Below are positions 1 to 57,064 of a DNA stretch of 64,000 nt, in pieces; within the stretch, counting starts at the first letter, position 1, and each line of letters opens with the position of its first letter. The notes beneath the pieces were generated by a model, which made no database searches, was not told the DNA's origin, and worked only from the letters and a program-made list of their open reading frames with translations. The stretch is from Octopus sinensis (taxonomy: Eukaryota), in assembly GCF_006345805.1 (NCBI RefSeq), contig NC_042999.1, positions 16,988,001-17,052,000 of the forward strand, given 5' to 3'. The translations under genes and the position numbers were made by a program.

Positions 1-65
1 CCAAAATTATACTAATCATACCCAAATGCAGTTTTTCAAAGCAAGACATTTAAAAAAATGAATTT

Positions 66-124
66 AGTTCTGTATCACCGTGATTTCACATTCAACTTTA
101 CGTCTAATGATCGTCAGCAGAACT
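66..124 (-). ncRNA. Type I hammerhead ribozyme, array unit 1
   Basis: Minus strand reads AGUUCUG-CUGACGA-U-CAUU..AAUG-U-GAAA-UCAC-G-GUGA-UA|CAGAACU: 7-bp stem I, canonical core, near-palindromic stem III. Confidence 0.8.
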
Positions 125-546
125 GATTCTGAATACATCATAAATAAACTACCAACCTTACGTAGCGAAGACAAACAGACAACTGCTCACTCCGGCCAAG
201 CACATGGAATGTTTATAAATCATATATCCGGTAAATGGCGGGCTTTTTTACGAACTGCATGTCGGGTAATGAAAAGTATTTCGGAATAAGTTTAACAATT
301 AAGGATAATCTCTTAATAAGGGATCTTAACAAGAAATTATCGGGTAGCTAGCGTGAAAACCTCGTAAAAGAAAAGAATTCGAAAATAATTTTTTCTTTTG
401 AACAAATTAATTATATCTATATTGTATAGAGGGCATTATTACACATAAATGCCTCACACTAGGAGGGACAAGTCATTACTACCAAAATTATACTAATCAT
501 ACCCAAATGCAGTTTTTCAAAGCAAGACATTTAAAAAAATGAATTT

Positions 547-605
547 AGTTCTGTATCACCGTGATTTCACATTCAACTTTACGTCTAATGATCGTCAGCA
601 GAACT
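547..605 (-). ncRNA. Type I hammerhead ribozyme, array unit 2
   Basis: Same sequence as 66-124. Confidence 0.8.
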
Positions 606-1028
606 GATTCTGAATACATCATAAATAAACTACCAACCTTACGTAGCGAAGACAAACAGACAACTGCTCACTCCGGCCAAGCACATGGAATGTTTATAAA
701 TCATATATCCGGTAAATGGCGGGCTTTTTTACGAACTGCATGTCGGGTAATGAAAAGTATTTCGGAATAAGTTTAACAATTAAGGATAATCTCTTAATAA
801 GGGATCTTAACAAGAAATTATCGGGTAGCTAGCGTGAAAACCTCGTAAAAGAAAAGAATTCGAAAATAATTTTTTTCTTTTGAACAATTAATTATATCTA
901 TATTGTATAGAGGGCATTATTACACATAAATGCCTCACACTAGGAGGGACAAAGTCATTACTACCAAAATTATACTAATCATACCCAAATGCAGTTTTTC
1001 AAAGCAAGACATTTAAAAAAATGAATTT

Positions 1029-1087
1029 AGTTCTGTATCACCGTGATTTCACATTCAACTTTACGTCTAATGATCGTCAGCAGAACT
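1029..1087 (-). ncRNA. Type I hammerhead ribozyme, array unit 3
   Basis: Same sequence as 66-124. Confidence 0.8.
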
Positions 1088-1510
1088 GATTCTGAATACA
1101 TCATAAATAAACTACCAACCTTACGTAGCGAAGACAAACAGACAACTGGTCACTCCGGCCAAGCACATGGAATGTTTATAAATCATATATCCGGTAAATG
1201 GCGGGCTTTTTTACGAACTGCATGTCGGGTAATGAAAAGTATTTCGGAATAAGTTTAACAATTAAGGATAATCTCTTAATAAGGGATCTTAACAAGAAAT
1301 TATCGGGTAGCTAGCGTGAAAACCTCGTAAAAGAAAAGAATTCGAAAATAATTTTTTTCTTTTGAACAAATTAATTATATCTATATTGTATAGAGGGCAT
1401 TATTACACATAAATGCCTCACACTAGGAGGGACAAAGTCATTACTACCAAAATTATACTAATCATACCCAAATGCAGTTTTTCAAAGCAAGACATTAAAA
1501 AAATGAATTT

Positions 1511-1569
1511 AGTTCTGTATCACCGTGATTTCACATTCAACTTTACGTCTAATGATCGTCAGCAGAACT
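1511..1569 (-). ncRNA. Type I hammerhead ribozyme, array unit 4
   Basis: Same sequence as 66-124. Confidence 0.8.
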
Positions 1570-1950
1570 GATTCTGAATACATCATAAATAAACTACAAC
1601 CTTACGTAGCGAAGACAAACAGACAACTGCTCACTCCGGCCAAGCACATGGAATGTTTATAAATCATATATCCGGTAAATGGCGGGCTTTTTTACGAACT
1701 GCATGTCGGGTAATGAAAAGTATTTCGGAATAAGTTTAACAATTAAGGATAATCTCTTAATAAGGGATCTTAACAAGAAATTATCGGGTAGCTAGCGTGA
1801 AAACCTCGTAAAAGAAAAGAATTCGAAAATAATTTTTTTCTTTTGAACAAATTAATTATATCTATATTGTATAGAGGGCATTATTACACATAAATGCCTC
1901 ACACTAGGAGGGACAATGTATATATATATATACATTTATATACATATATA

Positions 1951-7510: not shown

Positions 7511-8585
7511 ATGACAGTTCTATCGGACTTTCAAAGAGGTCAAATTGGTGGTGCTCGTATGGCAGGCGCTAGCGTAACGAAAACAGCCGAAATCTTTGGT
7601 GTATCAAGAATTACTGTCTCGAAAGTAATGACAGCCTTTGAGAAAGAGGGAAGAACCTCTTTGTCGAAACAACTCCGGAAGAAAACCAAAACTTTCAGAT
7701 AGGGACCGTCGGATTCTTACGCAAATTGTTAGAAAGTATCACAAAAGTATAAATCTAAAAATTACTGCAGATCTTAATAATCACTTCGAGAAACCAGTTT
7801 CTACAAAAAAATTTCGCCGGGAACTACACAAAGCCGAATTTAACGGGAGGATTGTAATCAGAAAACCACTACTTTCAAAATCAAACGTTGCAAAGCGATT
7901 AGAGTGGAGTAAAAAGCTACATAATTGGTCCCTAGAGCAGTGGAAGATTGTTATTTTCTTGGACGAGTCATCATTCACCTTATTTCCGACCACCAGCCGA
8001 GTATACGTGTAGAAGCGGCCAAAAAAAGCATTTGACCCAGACTGCCTTCTTCCAGCTGTTAAACAAGAGGAACTGTGATGATCTAGTAGCGCGGGGGGGG
8101 GGGGCATATCTTGGAAATCCGCCAGCCCAGTGGTTTCTCTTCATGGCAGAATTAACAGTCAAGACTATTTAAGCATTTTATCGGATCAAATTCATCCTGT
8201 GGATGCGGATCCGGAGGAAAATGCTATCTTTCAGGATGATAATGCACAATTTCACGGCGATCTTTCGTTACTAGAACACACGACTGCTAGTTACAAACCA
8301 CGTGTGTTTATTTACATTTGTGAAGATGATCGTCGATTTCCGTAAAAAACTTTTATTTTCTTACATATAGGGTTGGGAGGAAATGGGATCTTTTGAAGTT
8401 GGCGGGAATCGGAAGATTTGATATACGTGTGTGCGTGCGTGTGTATGTGTATTTGTGAGAGTGTGTGTGTGTTTGTAGGGTGTGCGAGACAGAAAGTGTG
8501 GTATGTAAGTGAAGTACTTTTGTTAGTGTGTGTGAAGAGACAGAGAGAGAGTAATGTTGCTGCTGTGTGTGTATGTGTGTGTGTG

Positions 8586-19148: not shown

Positions 19149-19577
19149 TTATATTTAATACGTTGTAATACTGCATTTTTTGCAGTATCTACTTTACATT
19201 CTAAAATCTCTAAGAGAGCCTGACTCTCCTGTTCTTCCGTAATGGCACAATCCAAAATATATTTGTCCTCTCTAATCTTTAAATGTAGCAGTCTACTTCC
19301 ATTATGACTTTGTGTAAATCGGAAGTTATGTGTATGTGCTCATGCTTTTTCTATTTCAAATTTTATGCTATTACAGACATTATCATAATTGTCTTTTATT
19401 TATCACTTGTTAGTCATTTCAATGTAGCCATACAGGAATATTTTAAGTTTGGTATGTATTTTATCAGTTTCTCATACCGAACCGCTAGATTACTAAGATG
19501 TATGCAAACACCTTTTGCCAAGCAGTGGGTGTCACGAACGCAATTACACGCACGAATTATATATATATATATATATA

Positions 19578-19844
19578 CTGTTGTGTCTGGGGAGAGTAAT
19601 TCTCTTTTGGTGCCTTATAACACACTCACCAGTAAAATTTCCACTTATTACTTTTTTATTTTTCTGAAATTTTCGTTGCGTCTTGCAAACTTTTCAGTAG
19701 TTTTCAGAGTCAAAAACTATTGAGAAGGTTGCAAGACGCAACGAAAATTTTAGAGAAATAAAAAACAAATAAGTGGAAATTTTACCGGTGAATGTGCTAA
19801 ATTATAAGGCACCAAAAGCGAATGCCTCTCCCCAGACATAACAG
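19578..19844. mobile_element. Almost fully palindromic foldback MITE (~267 bp)
   Basis: CTGTTGTGTCTGGGGAGAG..TTTCGTTGCGTCTTGCAA..TTGCAAGACGCAACGAAA..CTCTCCCCAGACATAACAG. Confidence 0.9.
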
Positions 19845-20704
19845 AATATGCTTCAACACACGAACTCACATAAAGAATCTTGCAAACAAAATCCCAAAAC
19901 GAAGTGTATATACAAAAGTGTAATTTAGGATTAACGCTTCGAAAGGAGACATTATATTCCAATATCCAAATCTTGTTTCAGAGGACATTCACCACTGATG
20001 GCTACCTGGAGCGGTCCATATTACTGCAGTTTCATTACTGGTTCTACGTCAGGCATTCGTAGGTGCAAGCTGGTTATATTTTAAATGACTGATATGGAAG
20101 ACGCTGTGTATGTAGAAGCTTTATTTAACACACCAATCGTTTCGGTTGCAGAAGGCAGACGAGACGATTGTTTTGCTAATTAAACCTAATATTTACACTC
20201 GGCTTTCTGCATCAATCATTTACAATGAATGTATATATATAAAAAGAATACAAAATACACAGTTATATCTTGAGATCGCTGGTAATAACAATACTCAAAA
20301 TATAAAACAGACTGCAATTGTAGTGCTCCAAATGAGCTATAATTCTTAATTTGAACGGAGGCAATGCGAGCAGGAACTAAAGGAACATTACTAAGATCTA
20401 CACTCAAAGATCAAATACATACGTATATTCATTTATATCTACAGAACGGATATAAAATTCGACATATATATACACAGATATAAATCATATATAAGTAGAT
20501 AAAAATCATATAATATATATAAATATATACGAATCAGTATTACAAACAAAGCTGTGAATTTATGCTTAAAGTTATAAAGGTTTAATTAAAAATTTGTATA
20601 ATTAAAAATTTGGGATAATAAAACATAAAAGGGCATATTAAAATGACGAATTAAAATTCCAGAAAAAAAAGCAGAAAAAATACAGTAAAAAACAAAATTA
20701 TATG

Positions 20705-21048
20705 TGTATGTGTCTCTGCGAATGCTTTTAAGCGGTGTCGAGTTTTATAATTCTGTAAATAATAACAATGATATTTTTATAAGGTTGAAGCTTACAGCGA
20801 TTACCGTCCAATTGACTAAGGAAAATAGTATAATAATGAGGCTCATAAGCCCTCGACAGAAAAAGGTAGGCTTTCCCTTACGCGTGGAACTCGAGCCCAC
20901 ATTGCTAAAACTCGACACCGCTTAACAAAACCTTTTGCACGATGATCGTTATAACTTTAAACTTAAAAAAAAACAAAACATTATTATTATTTACAGAATT
21001 GTAAAACTCAACACGTCTTAACAAAACCATTCGCACCGAAAGCACAAA
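20705..21048. repeat. Imperfect ~65-bp inverted repeats (old MITE-like)
   Basis: TGCGAATG..TTAAGCGGTGTCGAGTTTTATAATTCTGTAAATAATAA versus TTATTATTTACAGAATTGTAAAACTCAACACG.CTTAA..CATTCGCA. Confidence 0.6.
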
Positions 21049-21551
21049 GTTTGTTTACAAAAACAACTACAAACTAATATAGTTCTTAAATTTGGTGCAG
21101 TATGGTGGCTTGCGTGCCCTAATGAATCTGAGAAATTTAATACAGCTTCTCGTAATAGAAAGATTAAAGGGTAGAGTGAGAGTGGAATTTAAAGAGTTGC
21201 CACCAGTAGTGGATCTAGGTTTATTTATTATCCATAAAGGACTATACGTAAATGGGGCGGTACAATCGGGGAACATAAAATAACAAAAGAGGATGAATAA
21301 AGACGAAGGAATTAAAAAAAGAATGAATTATGATAAGATATTATAATGAGGCGCAATGCCAAACTCGAACCCCGAAGTGGAGTGGCTACATTTTGTCAGT
21401 CTTTTCCCATAATTGATTTTCTCAAAGATTACAACTGAATTTTACAAAATTACATATCAATTTCACAAAATTTACAAAAAAATTAATTTCCCAAAAATTT
21501 CAAAAGAAATAAATTTTGCAAACAGAGATTTTCGGCACTTTTTCCACAATT

Positions 21552-22852
21552 TTAGCGATAGTCTATTTTTCTTTTCAGCTCCTCATAATCCATTACGGGA
21601 GGTGGGTAATCCATCACCCGACACCTCTTTTCTTCTAGTTTATGCTTTCTGGCGACCTCGATGAAATTGGCGTAACTGTCCGCATGGACTAAAACACCAA
21701 TCTCATCTTCGTCGTACTTGGTTCCCATCCATACTCTTGTTACTCCCTTCACTGTCGATCCTTTTTTCTCTATTTCATAGGAGCTTTTGTATATTACAAA
21801 CGCTCCATAAGACTTAAACGTATCGTTACCTGTGTTTTCCGCTGCGTCTTCCCTCGTCTTCGATCTTTTTCTACTTTTGTGACTGGTAGCTCCTTTGCTC
21901 TCTTCTTTCGATTTTTCCATTTCTCTCTTATTGTTGTCCTTGTTTTCTTTCTCTTTCAGTGTACTGTTTTTTCCTAACTTTTTCATTCTGTTTGAACTTT
22001 CTCTTGTCTCTGTTCTTTCTTTTGCTCTTTTTGTTCCTTTTCTGTTGTCTCTTTACTTTGTGAAAATTCATATAAAGGACACTCAGTCCTTATATGACCT
22101 CTTGTTCCGCACAGATAACAATTGGGTCTCCTTCCTTCGACAATAATGTTTATCGTCGGTTCATTTTCAACTTCGATCTGAAAGGGGATTCTCTCTCTGT
22201 CTTCTGTTGCGGCTGTAAGCCACATTTCGACTCCGAATCCACGCCAGTTCACCGTATTGGTTTCAGTAACTGGACCCAGTTCGGGTTCGTCTTTTGTAGA
22301 CCCTAGAATCGCTGCCACCAGCTATTCTATTTTTATTTCCGGCAGTATACTCGGAATCTTAACCTAGACACTTCTTCTTCCTTTATAAGTGGGTAACATT
22401 GTAAACCTTTCTGTTCTTAAGATAGCGGTGGATAGCGAGGCCGCCACTTCACTTGTGGTAAACCTTACCTCCACCGTACCGAACTTCTTCCCTCTGCCCA
22501 CATAAGTTGCTCTTTCCATTACGTCTCCGATACACTTTTCTATTTCTTCTTCTGATATCCATACTATTTTCTTTGTGTTCATGTATTGAGTTTTATATAT
22601 AATCGTTTTAAGGTTTTTATCTGTTGTTTCTGCTGGAGGGATCAGTTTAATGCTTTCTCCCTCCCTTCTCACGTACTGTTCATATCTCTATATTTCTTCT
22701 TTAACAATTGTAACATTCTTTTTAAAACCCATTGCAGCAATTCTCGCATAGGTATTCCTGAAGGAGGGACGACGTCTTTTCTTTCACCTAAAATGAGAAA
22801 AAAAGAACCGCAAGCAGCAGAAAGCGCCTCGCGCGATTCGTTCTCGTTCCAT
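21552..22852 (-). pseudogene. L1/Tx1-type ORF1p (gag-like RNA-binding protein with CCHC zinc knuckle), disrupted by stops and frameshifts
   Basis: TYARIAAM N-terminal motif, RRM-like GRGKKFGTVEVRF, CYLCGTRGHIRTEC (CX2CX4HX4C), Lys/Glu-rich tail. Confidence 0.85.
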
Positions 22853-22873
22853 TTTTTTCACACAAAAGACATA

Positions 22874-24175
22874 ACGTCTTCACCGCATGAGCTCAAAAAA
22901 CACGTCTTCACCGCATGAGCTCAAAAAACACGTCTTCACCGCATGAGCTCAAAAAACACGTCTTCACCGCATGAGCTCAAAAAACAACATCTCCACCGCA
23001 TGAGCTCAAAAAACATGTCTTCACCGCATGAGCTCAGAAAACACGTCTTCACCGCATGAGCTCTACAAACAAGTCTTCACCGCATGAGCTAAAAAAACAC
23101 TTCTTCACCGCATGAACTCTACAAACACGTCTTCACCGCATGAGCTCAAAAAACACGTCTTCACCGCATGAGCTCACAAACACTTCTTCACCGCATGAGC
23201 TCAAAAAACACTTCTTCACCGCATGAGCTCTACAAACACGTCTTCACCGCATGAGCTCAAAAAACACATCTTCACCGCATGAGCTCAAAAAACACGTCTT
23301 CACCGCATGAGCTCAAAAAACACGTCTTCACCGCATGAGCTCTACAAACACGTCTTCACCGCATGAGCCCAAAAAACACATCTTCACCGCATGAGCTCAA
23401 AAAACATGTCTTCACCGCATGAGCTCAAAAAACACGTCTTCACCGCATGAGCTCAAAAAACACGTCTTCACCGCATGAGCTCAAAAAACACGTCTTCACC
23501 GCATGAGCTCTACAAACAAGTCTTCACCGCATGAGCTAAAAAAACACTTCTTCACCGCATGAACTCTACAAACACGTCTTCACCGCATGAGCTCAAAAAA
23601 CACGTCTTCACCGCATGAGCTCAAGAAACACGTCTTCACCGCATGAGCTCAAGAAACACGTCTTCACCGCATGAGCTCACAAACACTTCTTCACCCGCAT
23701 GAGCTCAAAAAATACTTCTTCACCGCATGAGCTCTACAAACACGTCTTCACCGCATGAGCTCAAAAAACACATCTTCACCGCATGAACTCTACAAACACG
23801 TCTTCACCGCATGAGCTCAAAAAACACGTCTTCACCGCATGAGCTCAAGAAACACGTCTTCACCGCATGAGCTCACAAACACTTCTTCACCGCATGAGTT
23901 CAAAAAACACTTCTTCACCGCATGAGCTCTACAAACACGTCTTCACCGCATGAACTCAAAAAACACATCTTCACCGCATGAGCTCAAAAAACACGTCTTC
24001 ACCGCATGAGCTCAAAAAACACGTCTTCACGGCATGAGCTCAAAAAACACATCTTCACCGCATGAGCTCAAAAAACATGTCTTCACCGCATGAGCTCAAA
24101 AAACACGTCTTCACCGCATGAGCCCAAAAAACACGTCTTCACCGCATGAGCTCAAGAAATACGTCTTCACCGCAT
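22874..24175 (-). repeat. 28-bp minisatellite, about 46 copies (CTTCACCGCATGAGCTCAAAAAACACGT), in the element 5' region
   Basis: 28-bp period (22878, 22906 ...) with recurring variant units and no spacers. Confidence 0.97.
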
Positions 24176-25314
24176 TGTTTTATTATTACCCACAAGGGGC
24201 GAACATAGATGGGACAATACAATCTGATGATGGGGTCAGACACACGAATGGGTTTTTACAATAAATCGAATTTAAAAATTTTCATGAATTACAATAAATG
24301 GACAGAAATCGAATGATGGGACAGACCGGAAGACATTACGGGTGGAGTGGGTGCGGGTTTAGCTCGGACCCCACGAGCCCCGCCTCCCCACTGATACTTT
24401 TGGTTGCGCTTGGTATTACATTTATGTTGTATCTTTCACTCGCAACTTTCGTGCTACATCCTTCCATCGTTCTTCATACACTCTCCTAGTCAGGCATATT
24501 CTCTCCAGCCCTATCTTCCTTTTCAGGTGAAAGATGAAATACTTCATCAAACCAGGGCCGGTGATGAACTTGCCTGACTGTACACCTTTCATTCTCGTCT
24601 TCCATATCACCTCTTTCGCAATTGCTACTACAACGAGAAAACGAAACTTACCTTCATTCACGAGGAAATCCGGTGGGTCAATGTTTGTAATCGACTCAGT
24701 CGACAGCTGTACTCTTCGTGTACCTGACAACAGCTGTTCGGCATAAAACCCACACCTCAGACACGTCCGGACAATGAACAATAGCGTGCGGGACGGTTTC
24801 CCTATCCCGCCCGCATCTTGGACATATCGGACTGTCTTGGCCACCGTGCCTTGCGAGTTTATCCCGAACAGGTAGAGCTCCTCTGTAGCATTGCCATGCC
24901 AGAGACTTCTGGAAGTTGTCCAGTGTCCTCGGCTCGAATGTACGTCGGAACAGACTGGCCAGCTGATTATCGTCGAGACCTAGGGTTTCCCCCAAGGTAT
25001 CTTCACATTCCGCCTCTACCAACCCTCTATAGAAGAATGTGGTGGAACCCCCCACCGCAGGCGTTGCCCGAGCGACGGAATAGCAGGAGAGCCTTGCGAC
25101 ACTCCGTGTACCAAGTACCAAGTTTCGATCTACGATTCAGCCAGGTTTCCCATCCACCGAAACTAGTGAACTTGGGAAACATCAGTTTTGCTAGCGAAGA
25201 CCACACCCGTTCACCATCCAGGTAGAGCCACAGATGTCTTAACCTCAGCGCATGTCTGCGCATCATCAGCCAAGGCATCCCTAGCCCACCCTTTAACGGT
25301 TGTTGACAGCAAGT
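24176..25314 (-). mobile_element. 5'-truncated L1/Tx1-clade LINE (ORF2 C-terminus, 3'UTR, A-rich tail) inserted in the 28-bp array
   Basis: PLKGGLGMP, KSLAWQCYRGALPV, CPRCGRDRETVPHAIVHCP (zf-RVT-like), AKEVIWKTR; frameshifted. Confidence 0.9.
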
Positions 25315-25617
25315 AGAGCTCAAAAAACACATCTTCACCGCATGAGCTCAAAAAACATGTCTTCACCGCATGAGCTCAAAAAACACGTCTTCACCGCATG
25401 AGCTCAAAAAACACGTCTTCACCGCATGAGCTCAAGAAACACGTCTTCACCGCATGAGCTCAAAAACACTTCTTCACCGCATCAGCTCAAAAAACACTTC
25501 TTCACCGCATGAGCTCTACAAACACGTCTTCACCGCATGAGCTCAAAAAACACGTCTTCACCGCATGAGCTCAAAAAACACGTCTTCACCGAATGAGCTC
25601 AAAAAACACGTCTTCAC
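25315..25617 (-). repeat. 28-bp minisatellite continuation, about 11 copies
   Basis: Resumes in register (GAGCTC..) after the LINE insertion. Confidence 0.97.
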
Positions 25618-25641
25618 TAGTCAAGTGATAGCGCGAACTGT
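25607..25641 (-). promoter_or_regulatory. Putative internal Pol II promoter of the retroelement (Inr-like CAGTT plus DPE-like AGACGTG about 27 nt downstream)
   Basis: Minus strand ACAGTTCGCGCTATCACTTGACTAGTGAAGACGTG lies directly inside the TSD; layout resembles invertebrate LINE internal promoters. Confidence 0.5.
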
Positions 25642-25927
25642 CTGCCAACAGTAGTGGCTCTAATGGACATTGAACCACTGATGTAGTACTATTAAAAAGA
25701 AAAATATATTAAATTGTAGGAAAACAAAAGAAAGAGTAAAGTGTTTTATGCTATTTTAAAAATAATTGTGGAAAAGGAAAATAACGAAGAACAATTGTAG
25801 ATAATATATATAACGGTTCAAATGGTACCGCATGGGAGTGTGGCCCACGCAACCATTTTCATTTTTATATAATTTCATCTCATTTATATTCATTTTATGT
25901 TTTTTGTCCCTACTATGGTCTTGTCTC

Positions 25928-26272
25928 GGTAATATTACAGATTAACACCCGCACGATTTTCACTAAGAAAAAAAAAACTCGGATTTTTTGCGTGGAATCA
26001 AGTACCCTGACCTCCTAATATGCTGTAAATCCCAAAAAATCCGAGTTTTTTTTTTTCTTAGTGAAAATCGTGCGGGTGTTAATCTGTAATTTTACCTATT
26101 TACATTTGTGAAGATAAAAAGATACCCTTCCCCCGCCCCTAAACCTAACCCTAACTAACCCTAACCGTAAAAGATATTGAAATGCAATAGATTGATACTA
26201 GGGTCATAATTATGGGTGACAATTTCATATGACACCGCTAGAAAAAAACTGCCATTCAAACCGAAAAGATCC
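25928..26272. mobile_element. Palindromic GGTAA..TTACC MITE (25928-26096) abutting half of a GGATC-family MITE (26097-26272)
   Basis: ~60-bp near-perfect TIRs, followed by sequence matching 14145-14298. Confidence 0.85.
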
Positions 26273-56464: not shown

Positions 56465-57064
56465 AGGCAGTGAGCTGGCAGAATCGTTAGCACACCAGAC
56501 GAAATGCGTAACCGTATTTCGTCTGCCGTTACGTTCTCAGTTCAAATTCCACCGAGGTCGATTTTGCCATTCATCCTTTCGGGGTCGATAAATGAAGTAC
56601 CAGTTACGTACTGGGGTCGATGTAATCGACTTAATCCGTTTGTCTGACCTTGTTTGTCCACTCTATGTTTAGGCCCTTGTAGGTAGTAAAGAAATAGGTA
56701 TTTCGTCTGCCGCTACGTTCTGAGTTCAAATTCCACCGAGGTCGACTTTGCCTTTCATCCTTTGGGGGTCGATAAATTAAGTACCAGTTACGCACTGGGG
56801 TCGATCTAATCAACTTAATACCTATGTCTGTCCTTGTTTGCCCCCTATGTGTTTAGCCCCTTGTGGGTAGTAAAGAAATAGGTATTTCGTCTGCCGCTAC
56901 GTTCTGAGTTCAAATTCCACCGAGGTCGATTTTCCCTTTCATCTTTTCGGGGGCGATAAATTAAGTACCAGTTACGCATTGGGGTCGATATAATCAACTT
57001 AATCCGTTTGTCTGTCCTTGTTTGTCCTCTCTGCGTTTATCCCCTTGTGGATAGTAAAGAAATA
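56465..57064 (+). mobile_element. Family A SINE tandem trimer with 17-bp TSD
   Basis: Units restart at GGTATTTCGTCTGCCG; flanks GGCATTATATTTAAACA / GGTATTATACTTAAACA. Confidence 0.92.

What the first reader, a model, noticed from the sequence alone, without database searches (positions are those of the whole stretch)
21198..25662. TSD-bounded ORF1-only retrotransposon (half-L1-like) of L1/Tx1 type
Seen: a 20-bp TSD (18/20 match) brackets, on the minus strand, an Inr/DPE-like start, a 28-bp array, a zinc-knuckle ORF1, a ~330-bp 3'UTR and an AATAAATAAA tail. No endonuclease or RT sequence lies between ORF1 and the tail. Known: ORF1-only non-autonomous L1 derivatives (HAL1) exist in several eukaryote lineages; I do not know of a described cephalopod family. 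Inferred: it supplied its own RNA chaperone and borrowed ORF2p in trans through the shared 3' tail.
Basis: partly seen in the sequence, partly recalled or inferred. Interest (0 to 1): 0.7.

Follow-up and report, generated by a model that had tools for sequence, protein, structure and literature searches.

The report
Octopus half-LINE with nested LINE fragment
This is a dead copy of an octopus jumping gene that keeps only the RNA-binding first gene of a LINE and probably borrows the copying enzyme from full LINEs through a shared tail; a piece of such a full LINE later landed inside it, and the way of life is already known from mammals and insects.

Summary
The 18/20 target-site duplication, the zinc-knuckle ORF1 (two RRM-like folds plus CCHC), the 334-bp 3'UTR and the tail are real, and no ORF2 lies between ORF1 and the tail. 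Contigs of public runs confirm this locus's junctions. They also show a second copy, 14% diverged, that runs from the ORF1 end to the tail in about 310 bp and then into a different flank, so this is not a one-off deletion. The ORF1-only element shares about 50 nt of 3' tail (37 of 51 columns) with the nested LINE; the last ~40 nt are also shared by 21 SINE-like copies in the window. Best reading: a HAL1-like non-autonomous family of Tx1 type in Octopus, mobilised in trans through a shared tail. This copy is decayed (four stops, one frameshift). Not tested: TSDs of other copies, selection on ORF1, the actual helper, and whether some relatives carry ORF2. ORF1-only LINE derivatives are a known kind; my literature searches found no cephalopod family, but Repbase and Dfam could not be searched.

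The parts
25643..25662 (-). 5' copy of the 20-bp target-site duplication
   Evidence: 18/20 to the 3' copy, unique in the window; 0 of 400 controls above 15/20
25618..25642 (-). unique 5' leader of the element; Inr-like CAGT at +3 (promoter role not shown)
   Evidence: sequence; DPE-like word at +27, one off the recalled canonical spacing
25316..25617 (-). 28-bp tandem array, upstream block (10.8 units)
   Evidence: TRF, unit listing
24176..25315 (-). nested 5'-truncated L1/Tx1-type LINE: ORF2 C-terminal third (25317-24425, zf-RVT, two frameshifts at G and T runs, no internal stop), own 3'UTR (24421-24176) and AATAATAAAA tail; 2-nt microhomology at the 5' junction; inserted in phase with the array, flanked by 140-bp blocks that differ at 2 sites
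   Evidence: Pfam; tblastn to P0005, P0011, P0174; junctions. An equally good 140-bp block lies at 23504, so a long TSD is not proven
22874..24175 (-). 28-bp tandem array, downstream block (46.5 units); 5'UTR of the host element
   Evidence: TRF; X3 record 22 runs from ORF1 29 letters past the laid stretch towards the array
21552..22852 (-). decayed ORF1 (about 430 codons; start uncertain, homology begins at 22753): two RRM-like folds, CCHC knuckle at about 22174-22127, K/E-rich linker, small C-terminal alpha/beta domain; 4 stops, 1 frameshift
21218..21551 (-). 3'UTR (334 bp); 21389-21219 aligns to the nested LINE's 3'UTR (104 identities, 64 mismatches, 13 gaps); last ~50 nt are the shared tail; AATAAATAAA at 21229-21220
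21198..21217 (-). 3' copy of the target-site duplication
   Evidence: tail/flank junction present in X1 record 3 with 1 difference in 262 bp

Best explanation
A decayed, full-length copy (3.3 kb without the nested piece) of an Octopus non-autonomous retroposon family that arose from an L1/Tx1-type LINE by loss of ORF2 and kept the 5' region, ORF1 and the 3'UTR. Source copies are transcribed from their 5' end (inferred). They make a Type I ORF1p that packages their own RNA (inferred by analogy with HAL1). The RNA is reverse transcribed at a nicked target by ORF2p of a related autonomous Tx1-type LINE, which recognises the conserved ~50-nt 3' tail (tail sharing shown, recognition inferred). This leaves a 20-bp TSD (shown). 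After insertion this copy decayed neutrally, and a 5'-truncated copy of an autonomous Tx1-type LINE inserted into its 28-bp array (shown; its later date is inferred from nesting and from its lack of internal stops).
For: TSD beyond chance. ORF1: zf-CCHC; AlphaFold model pLDDT 84.8 whose best matches are RRM and tandem-RRM proteins; 437 look-alikes at E<=0.001, with named close ones from Octopus vulgaris, O. sinensis, O. bimaculoides and Argonauta. ORF1 ends at the homologues' natural C-terminus. A second copy, 14% diverged, has the same short ORF1-to-tail distance and another flank (X1 record 4; X2 record 9 and X5 record 26 show the same first piece with the same 42 differences). Summed contig depth over ORF1, the stop junction and the 3'UTR is several-fold to more than 10-fold the depth of the locus-specific contigs, with no marked drop at the junction in X1 (237-304 across 21284-21794 against 33-43; a rough guide only). 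Tail homology to the nested LINE: 37 identities in 51 columns, 0 of 1000 shuffles; upstream UTR part 3 of 1000. At two of the four stops nearly all other contigs show a sense codon, so source copies had a more open ORF1.
Against: Only one other copy is seen to bridge ORF1 and tail on one listed contig, and no TSD of another copy was checked. One search hid 801 loose ends and 3358 pieces, so ORF1-to-ORF2 junctions in some relatives are not excluded (X1 record 6 leaves the alignment at 21740 into unlike sequence). The two 3'UTRs are only 57% alike, so the nested LINE is a relative of the helper, not shown to be the helper. No conserved tail structure is supported: a 4-bp stem with one compensatory pair; folding z = -2.1, -0.3 and +0.4. 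Selection on ORF1 could not be measured: the 34 displayed differences in ORF1 (25 non-synonymous, 7 synonymous, 2 at stops) show only this copy's neutral decay. No protein links this ORF1 type directly to an ORF2 (0 of 151; empty, weak evidence).
Confidence: 0.62

Rival explanations
1. The family is real and is mobilised in trans through its tail, but ORF1 is passive baggage: the RNA behaves like a long SINE or a bipartite non-autonomous LINE, and the ORF1 protein is not needed.
For: A SINE-like repeat with the same tail and no ORF has 21 tail matches in this window, so the tail alone may suffice. This copy's ORF1 differences look neutral.
Against: Two stops are private to this copy. The second copy has 42 substitutions and no gap in 291 bp of ORF1 (weak, because pieces may be cut at indels). 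Long open ORF1 relatives exist in Octopus proteomes, though their element context is unknown.
Confidence: 0.2
2. The ORF1-only layout arose once and was multiplied at DNA level (segmental or tandem duplication, or carried inside another element), not by retrotransposition.
For: X2 record 8 carries one shared sequence beyond the tail at about 8 times single-copy depth. The P0001 cluster holds six near-consecutive O. vulgaris accessions on contigs of the same 225.7-Mb length, which suggests a tandem cluster of a 57%-identical ORF1.
Against: This copy has its own TSD. X1 record 4 stops matching exactly at the tail end and continues into other sequence.
Confidence: 0.08
3. A one-off deletion or rearrangement of a full-length LINE at this locus; the ORF2 piece in the array is its own displaced 3' end.
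For: ORF1 and an ORF2 end of the same broad clade lie within one TSD pair.
Against: There are two separate 3'UTRs and tails, only 57% alike. The ORF2 piece has the marks of an independent 5'-truncated insertion. ORF1 is complete to its natural end. A 14%-diverged copy has the same junction.
Confidence: 0.06

Closest known systems
HAL1 (half-L1) of mammals
   Same: Non-autonomous L1-clade derivative encoding only ORF1p, thought to use cis ORF1p and trans ORF2p (passages of PMC5753468; PMC3627910). TSD and A-rich end.
   Different: ORF1 here is Type I (RRM + CCHC), as in Tx1-type elements, not Transposase_22 (no such Pfam hit; types from PMC5203782). The host is an octopus, so the origin is independent. 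It ends in a specific tail shared with a LINE and a SINE rather than poly(A) alone, and its 5'UTR is a 1.6-kb 28-bp array.
ORF1-present bipartite non-autonomous LINEs: HeT-A (Jockey clade), Ag-Sponge (CR1 clade)
   Same: ORF1-only derivatives that keep the 5' and 3' parts of a LINE (PMC5786205 passage).
   Different: Other clades; that passage lists no Tx1 case. HeT-A is telomeric (recalled), whereas this copy is interstitial with a TSD.
Tx1 clade non-LTR retrotransposons (Tx1, Keno, Kibi, Koshi)
   Same: Type I ORF1; relatives of the nested ORF2 have EN + RT + zf-RVT and match human L1 ORF2p better than R2 (E 1e-21 against 1e-12). L1-Tx1 has 80 families and 56 Mb in O. vulgaris (PMC13282606 supplement).
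   Different: The host element lacks ORF2. Target specificity, typical of many Tx1 (PMC4494074), was not testable. No RT tree against reference Tx1 elements was built.
Stringent LINE/SINE tail pairs
   Same: A LINE and non-autonomous elements share a specific 3' end (PMC3472496).
   Different: Only 3 SINEs with L1-clade tails were found among 58 pairs in that 2012 survey. Here three parties share the tail (LINE, ORF1-only element, SINE-like repeat), and a conserved stem-loop is not supported.

Membership tests
ORF1-only non-autonomous LINE (HAL1-like kind) | Encodes a LINE ORF1p | tested here: met
   zf-CCHC; RRM-like folds; Atlas neighbours of homologue P0012 with CCHC, RRM and ZCCHC3-type RBD families at scores 0.90-0.92
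ORF1-only non-autonomous LINE (HAL1-like kind) | No ORF2 between ORF1 and the 3' end | tested here: met
   334 bp with no ORF2 similarity; junction present in X1 record 5
ORF1-only non-autonomous LINE (HAL1-like kind) | TPRT hallmarks: TSD and A-rich tail | tested here: met
ORF1-only non-autonomous LINE (HAL1-like kind) | More than one independent copy with the same ORF1-to-tail junction | tested here: met
   one further copy with another flank on a single contig (X1 record 4), plus multi-copy depth
ORF1-only non-autonomous LINE (HAL1-like kind) | Many copies, each with its own TSD | not testable with these tools
   no genome held; contigs are short unitigs
ORF1-only non-autonomous LINE (HAL1-like kind) | ORF1 under purifying selection in source lineages | tested here: inconclusive
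   only differences against this decayed copy were available
ORF1-only non-autonomous LINE (HAL1-like kind) | 3' end related to an autonomous LINE | tested here: met
   tail 37/51, 0 of 1000 shuffles; whole-UTR alignment 0 of 1000
HAL1 proper (mammalian L1-derived) | ORF1p of mammalian L1 type (Transposase_22, Type II) | tested here: not met
   no Transposase_22 family hit for the window ORF1 pieces or for 41 homologues; CCHC and RRM found instead
Tx1 clade | Type I ORF1 (RRM + CCHC) | tested here: met
   type definition from PMC5203782; this type is not exclusive to Tx1
Tx1 clade | RT phylogeny groups with Tx1 | not tested
Tx1 clade | Target-sequence preference | not testable with these tools
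   flanks of other copies are not returned as sequence

The most novel reading that the evidence does not exclude
Octopus harbours a three-tier system built on one sequence-specific 3' tail. An autonomous Tx1-type LINE supplies ORF2p; a protein-coding ORF1-only family with a 28-bp minisatellite leader parasitises it; and a very abundant SINE (21 tail matches in 64 kb) uses the same tail. A stringent L1-clade enzyme would then be the engine of the octopus SINE expansion. The LINE may also target the parasite's own 28-bp array (in-phase insertion, possibly with a 140-bp TSD).
Probability: 0.3. Interest if true: 0.62.

Novelty: new member of a known kind. Interest (0 to 1): 0.42.

Why it matters
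ORF1-only LINE derivatives are listed for the L1 (HAL1), Jockey (HeT-A) and CR1 (Ag-Sponge) clades. This would add an independent Tx1-type case in cephalopods and support repeated convergence on keeping ORF1 in cis. RT-based surveys of mollusc LINEs cannot see such families. The shared tail gives a testable partner for an abundant octopus SINE; SINEs are 11.6% of the O. vulgaris genome (PMC13282606), and L1-clade LINE/SINE tail pairs were rare in a 2012 survey. This particular copy is dead and has no evident host function.

Tried and rejected
No genome is held, so copies, flanks and TSDs could not be counted. The search for related loci found nothing for P0003 in metagenome contigs or for the ORF2 alignment in metagenome, GTDB and viral contigs. 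The array unit had 0 exact matches in GTDB and viral contigs. A search for ORF1-ORF2 fused proteins covered only 1508-4305 aa and found none (weak); none of 151 ORF1 look-alikes matched ORF2 P0174. No RNA holder was listed; this says nothing about expression. No second copy of ORF1, ORF2 or the array lies in the window. Rfam gave no family at its gathering score, only sub-threshold hairpin matches at 25921-26093. ARAGORN found no tRNA. A conserved tail stem-loop is not supported. The C-terminal ORF1 domain folded confidently in 1 of 5 models and matched only generic ferredoxin-like folds, Z at most 6.2, no Foldseek hit at E<=0.001: inconclusive. A 140-bp TSD of the nested LINE is not unique. 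The Inr/DPE claim is kept as unproven. Earlier findings: none for this genome or sequence. Literature: searches, and term look-ups in four octopus or mollusc TE papers, showed no cephalopod ORF1-only family. Bao and Jurka 2010 was not held. Repbase and Dfam are not searchable here and may hold such a family.
Full report
OBSERVATION. On the minus strand a 20-mer at 25662-25643 recurs at 21217-21198 with 18 of 20 identities. No other site in the window matches either copy at more than 15, and 0 of 400 random flank pairs at the same spacing exceeded 15. The 4,425 bp between the two copies hold, in order: a 25-bp leader, 10.8 units of a 28-bp repeat, 1,140 bp of other sequence, 46.5 more units, ORF1 (22852-21552), a 334-bp 3'UTR and AATAAATAAA. 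Eight ORF2 relatives find nothing in the 3'UTR (best E 0.25 sense, 0.026 antisense). The Inr/DPE claim is weak: the DPE-like word is at +27 and belongs to every array unit (canonical +28 recalled).

The 1,140 bp that split the array (25315-24176) are the 3' end of an autonomous LINE. They carry zf-RVT (E 1.3e-9) and are 41-61% identical to residues 810-1098 of P0174, which has endonuclease, RT and zf-RVT domains, and 51-71% identical to Octopus sinensis P0011. The piece has two frameshifts at G and T runs, no internal stop, its own 3'UTR and tail, and a 2-nt microhomology at the truncated 5' end. It sits in phase with the array. The 140 bp on either side differ at 2 sites, the best of 1-10 units, but a block at 23504 matches equally well, so a long TSD is possible and not shown. 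I read it as a later nested insertion; without it the host is 3,285 bp.

ORF1. It has four stops (22786, 22690, 22366, 22324) and one frameshift; the start is uncertain because homology begins at 22753. Read with X at the stops it shows zf-CCHC. It has 437 look-alikes at E<=0.001, and the named close ones are from Octopus vulgaris, O. sinensis, O. bimaculoides and Argonauta, so the host is taken to be an octopus. A model built on 36 sequences (pLDDT 84.8) matches tandem-RRM proteins by Foldseek (37 matches at E<=0.001) and single RRMs at Z 7-8 (middling). This is a Type I ORF1 (RRM + CCHC), which PMC5203782 associates with Tx1-type elements (passages). The C-terminus coincides with that of P0003 (about 70% identical) and of the P0001 family, so ORF1 was not cut by a deletion.

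FAMILY TEST. Twenty of 24 listed runs, from 10 studies, hold part of ORF1 + 3'UTR; I laid 4 of them at 80% likeness. X1 records 5 and 3 reproduce this locus's stop/UTR and tail/flank junctions with 0 and 1 differences; X1 may be related to the source of the assembly, so this only argues against an assembly error. X1 record 4 (861 bp, depth 31, single-copy level) matches 21819-21529 with 42 differences and no gap, then 21360-21220 after 148 letters (168 here), and continues for 101 unlike letters. It is a second, 14%-diverged copy with the same ORF1-to-tail layout and another flank. X2 record 9 and X5 record 26 show the same first piece with 42 differences and are probably the same copy. X2 record 8 covers the 3'UTR only and leaves into a further flank at about 8 times single-copy depth. 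Summed depth in X1 is 237-304 across 21284-21794 against 33-43 for locus-specific contigs; the tool warns that this is no copy number. At two of the stops nearly all other contigs have a sense codon. Against my reading: 801 loose ends and 3358 pieces were not shown, X1 record 6 leaves into unlike sequence inside ORF1, and no other TSD could be seen. The 34 displayed ORF1 differences (of more than 400 rows) are 25 non-synonymous, 7 synonymous and 2 at stops: neutral decay of this copy, not a test of selection.

SHARED TAIL. The two 3'UTRs align over 21389-21219 and 24354-24177 with 104 identities, 64 mismatches and 13 gaps (0 of 1000 shuffles). The last ~50 nt give 37 of 51 (0 of 1000) and the upstream part alone 3 of 1000. 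The same tail motif occurs 23 times in the window at up to 5 mismatches, against 0 in five shuffled windows: once in each element and 21 times in a SINE-like repeat with A- and B-box-like words (by eye). The motif was taken from the SINE, and the ORF1-only tail is the most distant match (5 mismatches). A conserved stem-loop is not supported. At 57% UTR identity the nested LINE is a relative of the helper, not shown to be it.

MECHANISM. Shown: TSD, ORF1-only layout in two diverged copies, Type I ORF1, tail homology with an ORF2-coding LINE, nesting. Inferred: transcription from the 5' region, ORF1p binding its own RNA, capture of a Tx1-type ORF2p through the tail, and TPRT. I give 0.62 to this full model, 0.20 to a family in which ORF1 is a passenger, 0.08 to DNA-level multiplication and 0.06 to a one-off deletion.

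COMPARISON. It works like HAL1 (passages of PMC5753468, and PMC3627910) but is not HAL1 proper, since the ORF1 type differs. PMC5786205 lists HeT-A, HAL1 and Ag-Sponge as ORF1-present non-autonomous LINEs of the Jockey, L1 and CR1 clades (passage). Tx1 membership rests on domain content and on L1-over-R2 similarity of P0005; no RT tree was made. PMC3472496 found 3 SINEs with L1-clade tails among 58 pairs (passages). Of the octopus and mollusc TE papers I saw part 1 of 3, term passages and the supplement of PMC13282606 and term passages of PMC9115989, PMC10294476, PMC8967140, PMC4758252, PMC4494074 and PMC3747384; none showed a cephalopod ORF1-only family. Bao and Jurka 2010 was not held. Other supplements, Repbase and Dfam were not seen and may bear on novelty. 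Earlier unchecked notes of this scan report ORF1-only retroposons in fungi and mammals, which suggests the kind is widespread.

VERDICT. New member of a known kind, interest 0.42. The three-way tail is the most promising lead.

Noticed in passing
21 sites, e.g. window 7295, 13825, 19126, 55773, 56672-57040, 63944: An abundant SINE-like repeat (often as ~184-bp tandem units) ends in the same ~40-nt tail as the nested LINE and the ORF1-only element. The name 'Twister' for an octopus SINE is recalled and was not confirmed.
   Followed up: partly
window 24036-24175 and 25316-25455: Five array units on each side of the nested LINE match at 138 of 140 bp: a possible 140-bp TSD, but another block at 23504 matches equally.
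   Followed up: partly
P0001 cluster: Six near-consecutive O. vulgaris accessions (CAI9715245-49 and 51) encode near-identical ORF1 proteins 57% like this one, which suggests a tandem ORF1 cluster; what lies between them is unknown.
   Followed up: no
window 22525-22870 in run X3: Depth of 1700-2800 over the 5' part of ORF1 against about 4 for locus-specific flank contigs, in a small run of unknown library type; unexplained, may be a library effect.
   Followed up: no
window 24425-25317: The ORF2 piece is 56-65% identical to proteins from JGI and ENA metagenome contigs and to a protein labelled Herbaspirillum sp.: probably eukaryotic contamination of those data sets; the host is unknown and horizontal transfer is untested.
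   Followed up: partly
window 25928-26096: Long hairpin with 50-bp arms at 98%; only sub-threshold Rfam miRNA matches; probably a MITE or foldback element.
   Followed up: partly
window 20728-21094 and 19573-19849: Inverted-repeat, MITE-like elements; the first is at very high contig depth.
   Followed up: no
window 21555-21818 (-): Unannotated ~88-aa C-terminal ORF1 domain shared weakly with the P0001 family; one of five models gives a ferredoxin-like fold.
   Followed up: partly
window 1-1916: Four near-perfect copies of a 481-bp tandem unit (99% match).
   Followed up: no
window 7632-8009 (+): A 126-aa open stretch that reads like a Tc1/mariner transposase fragment (by eye).
   Followed up: no
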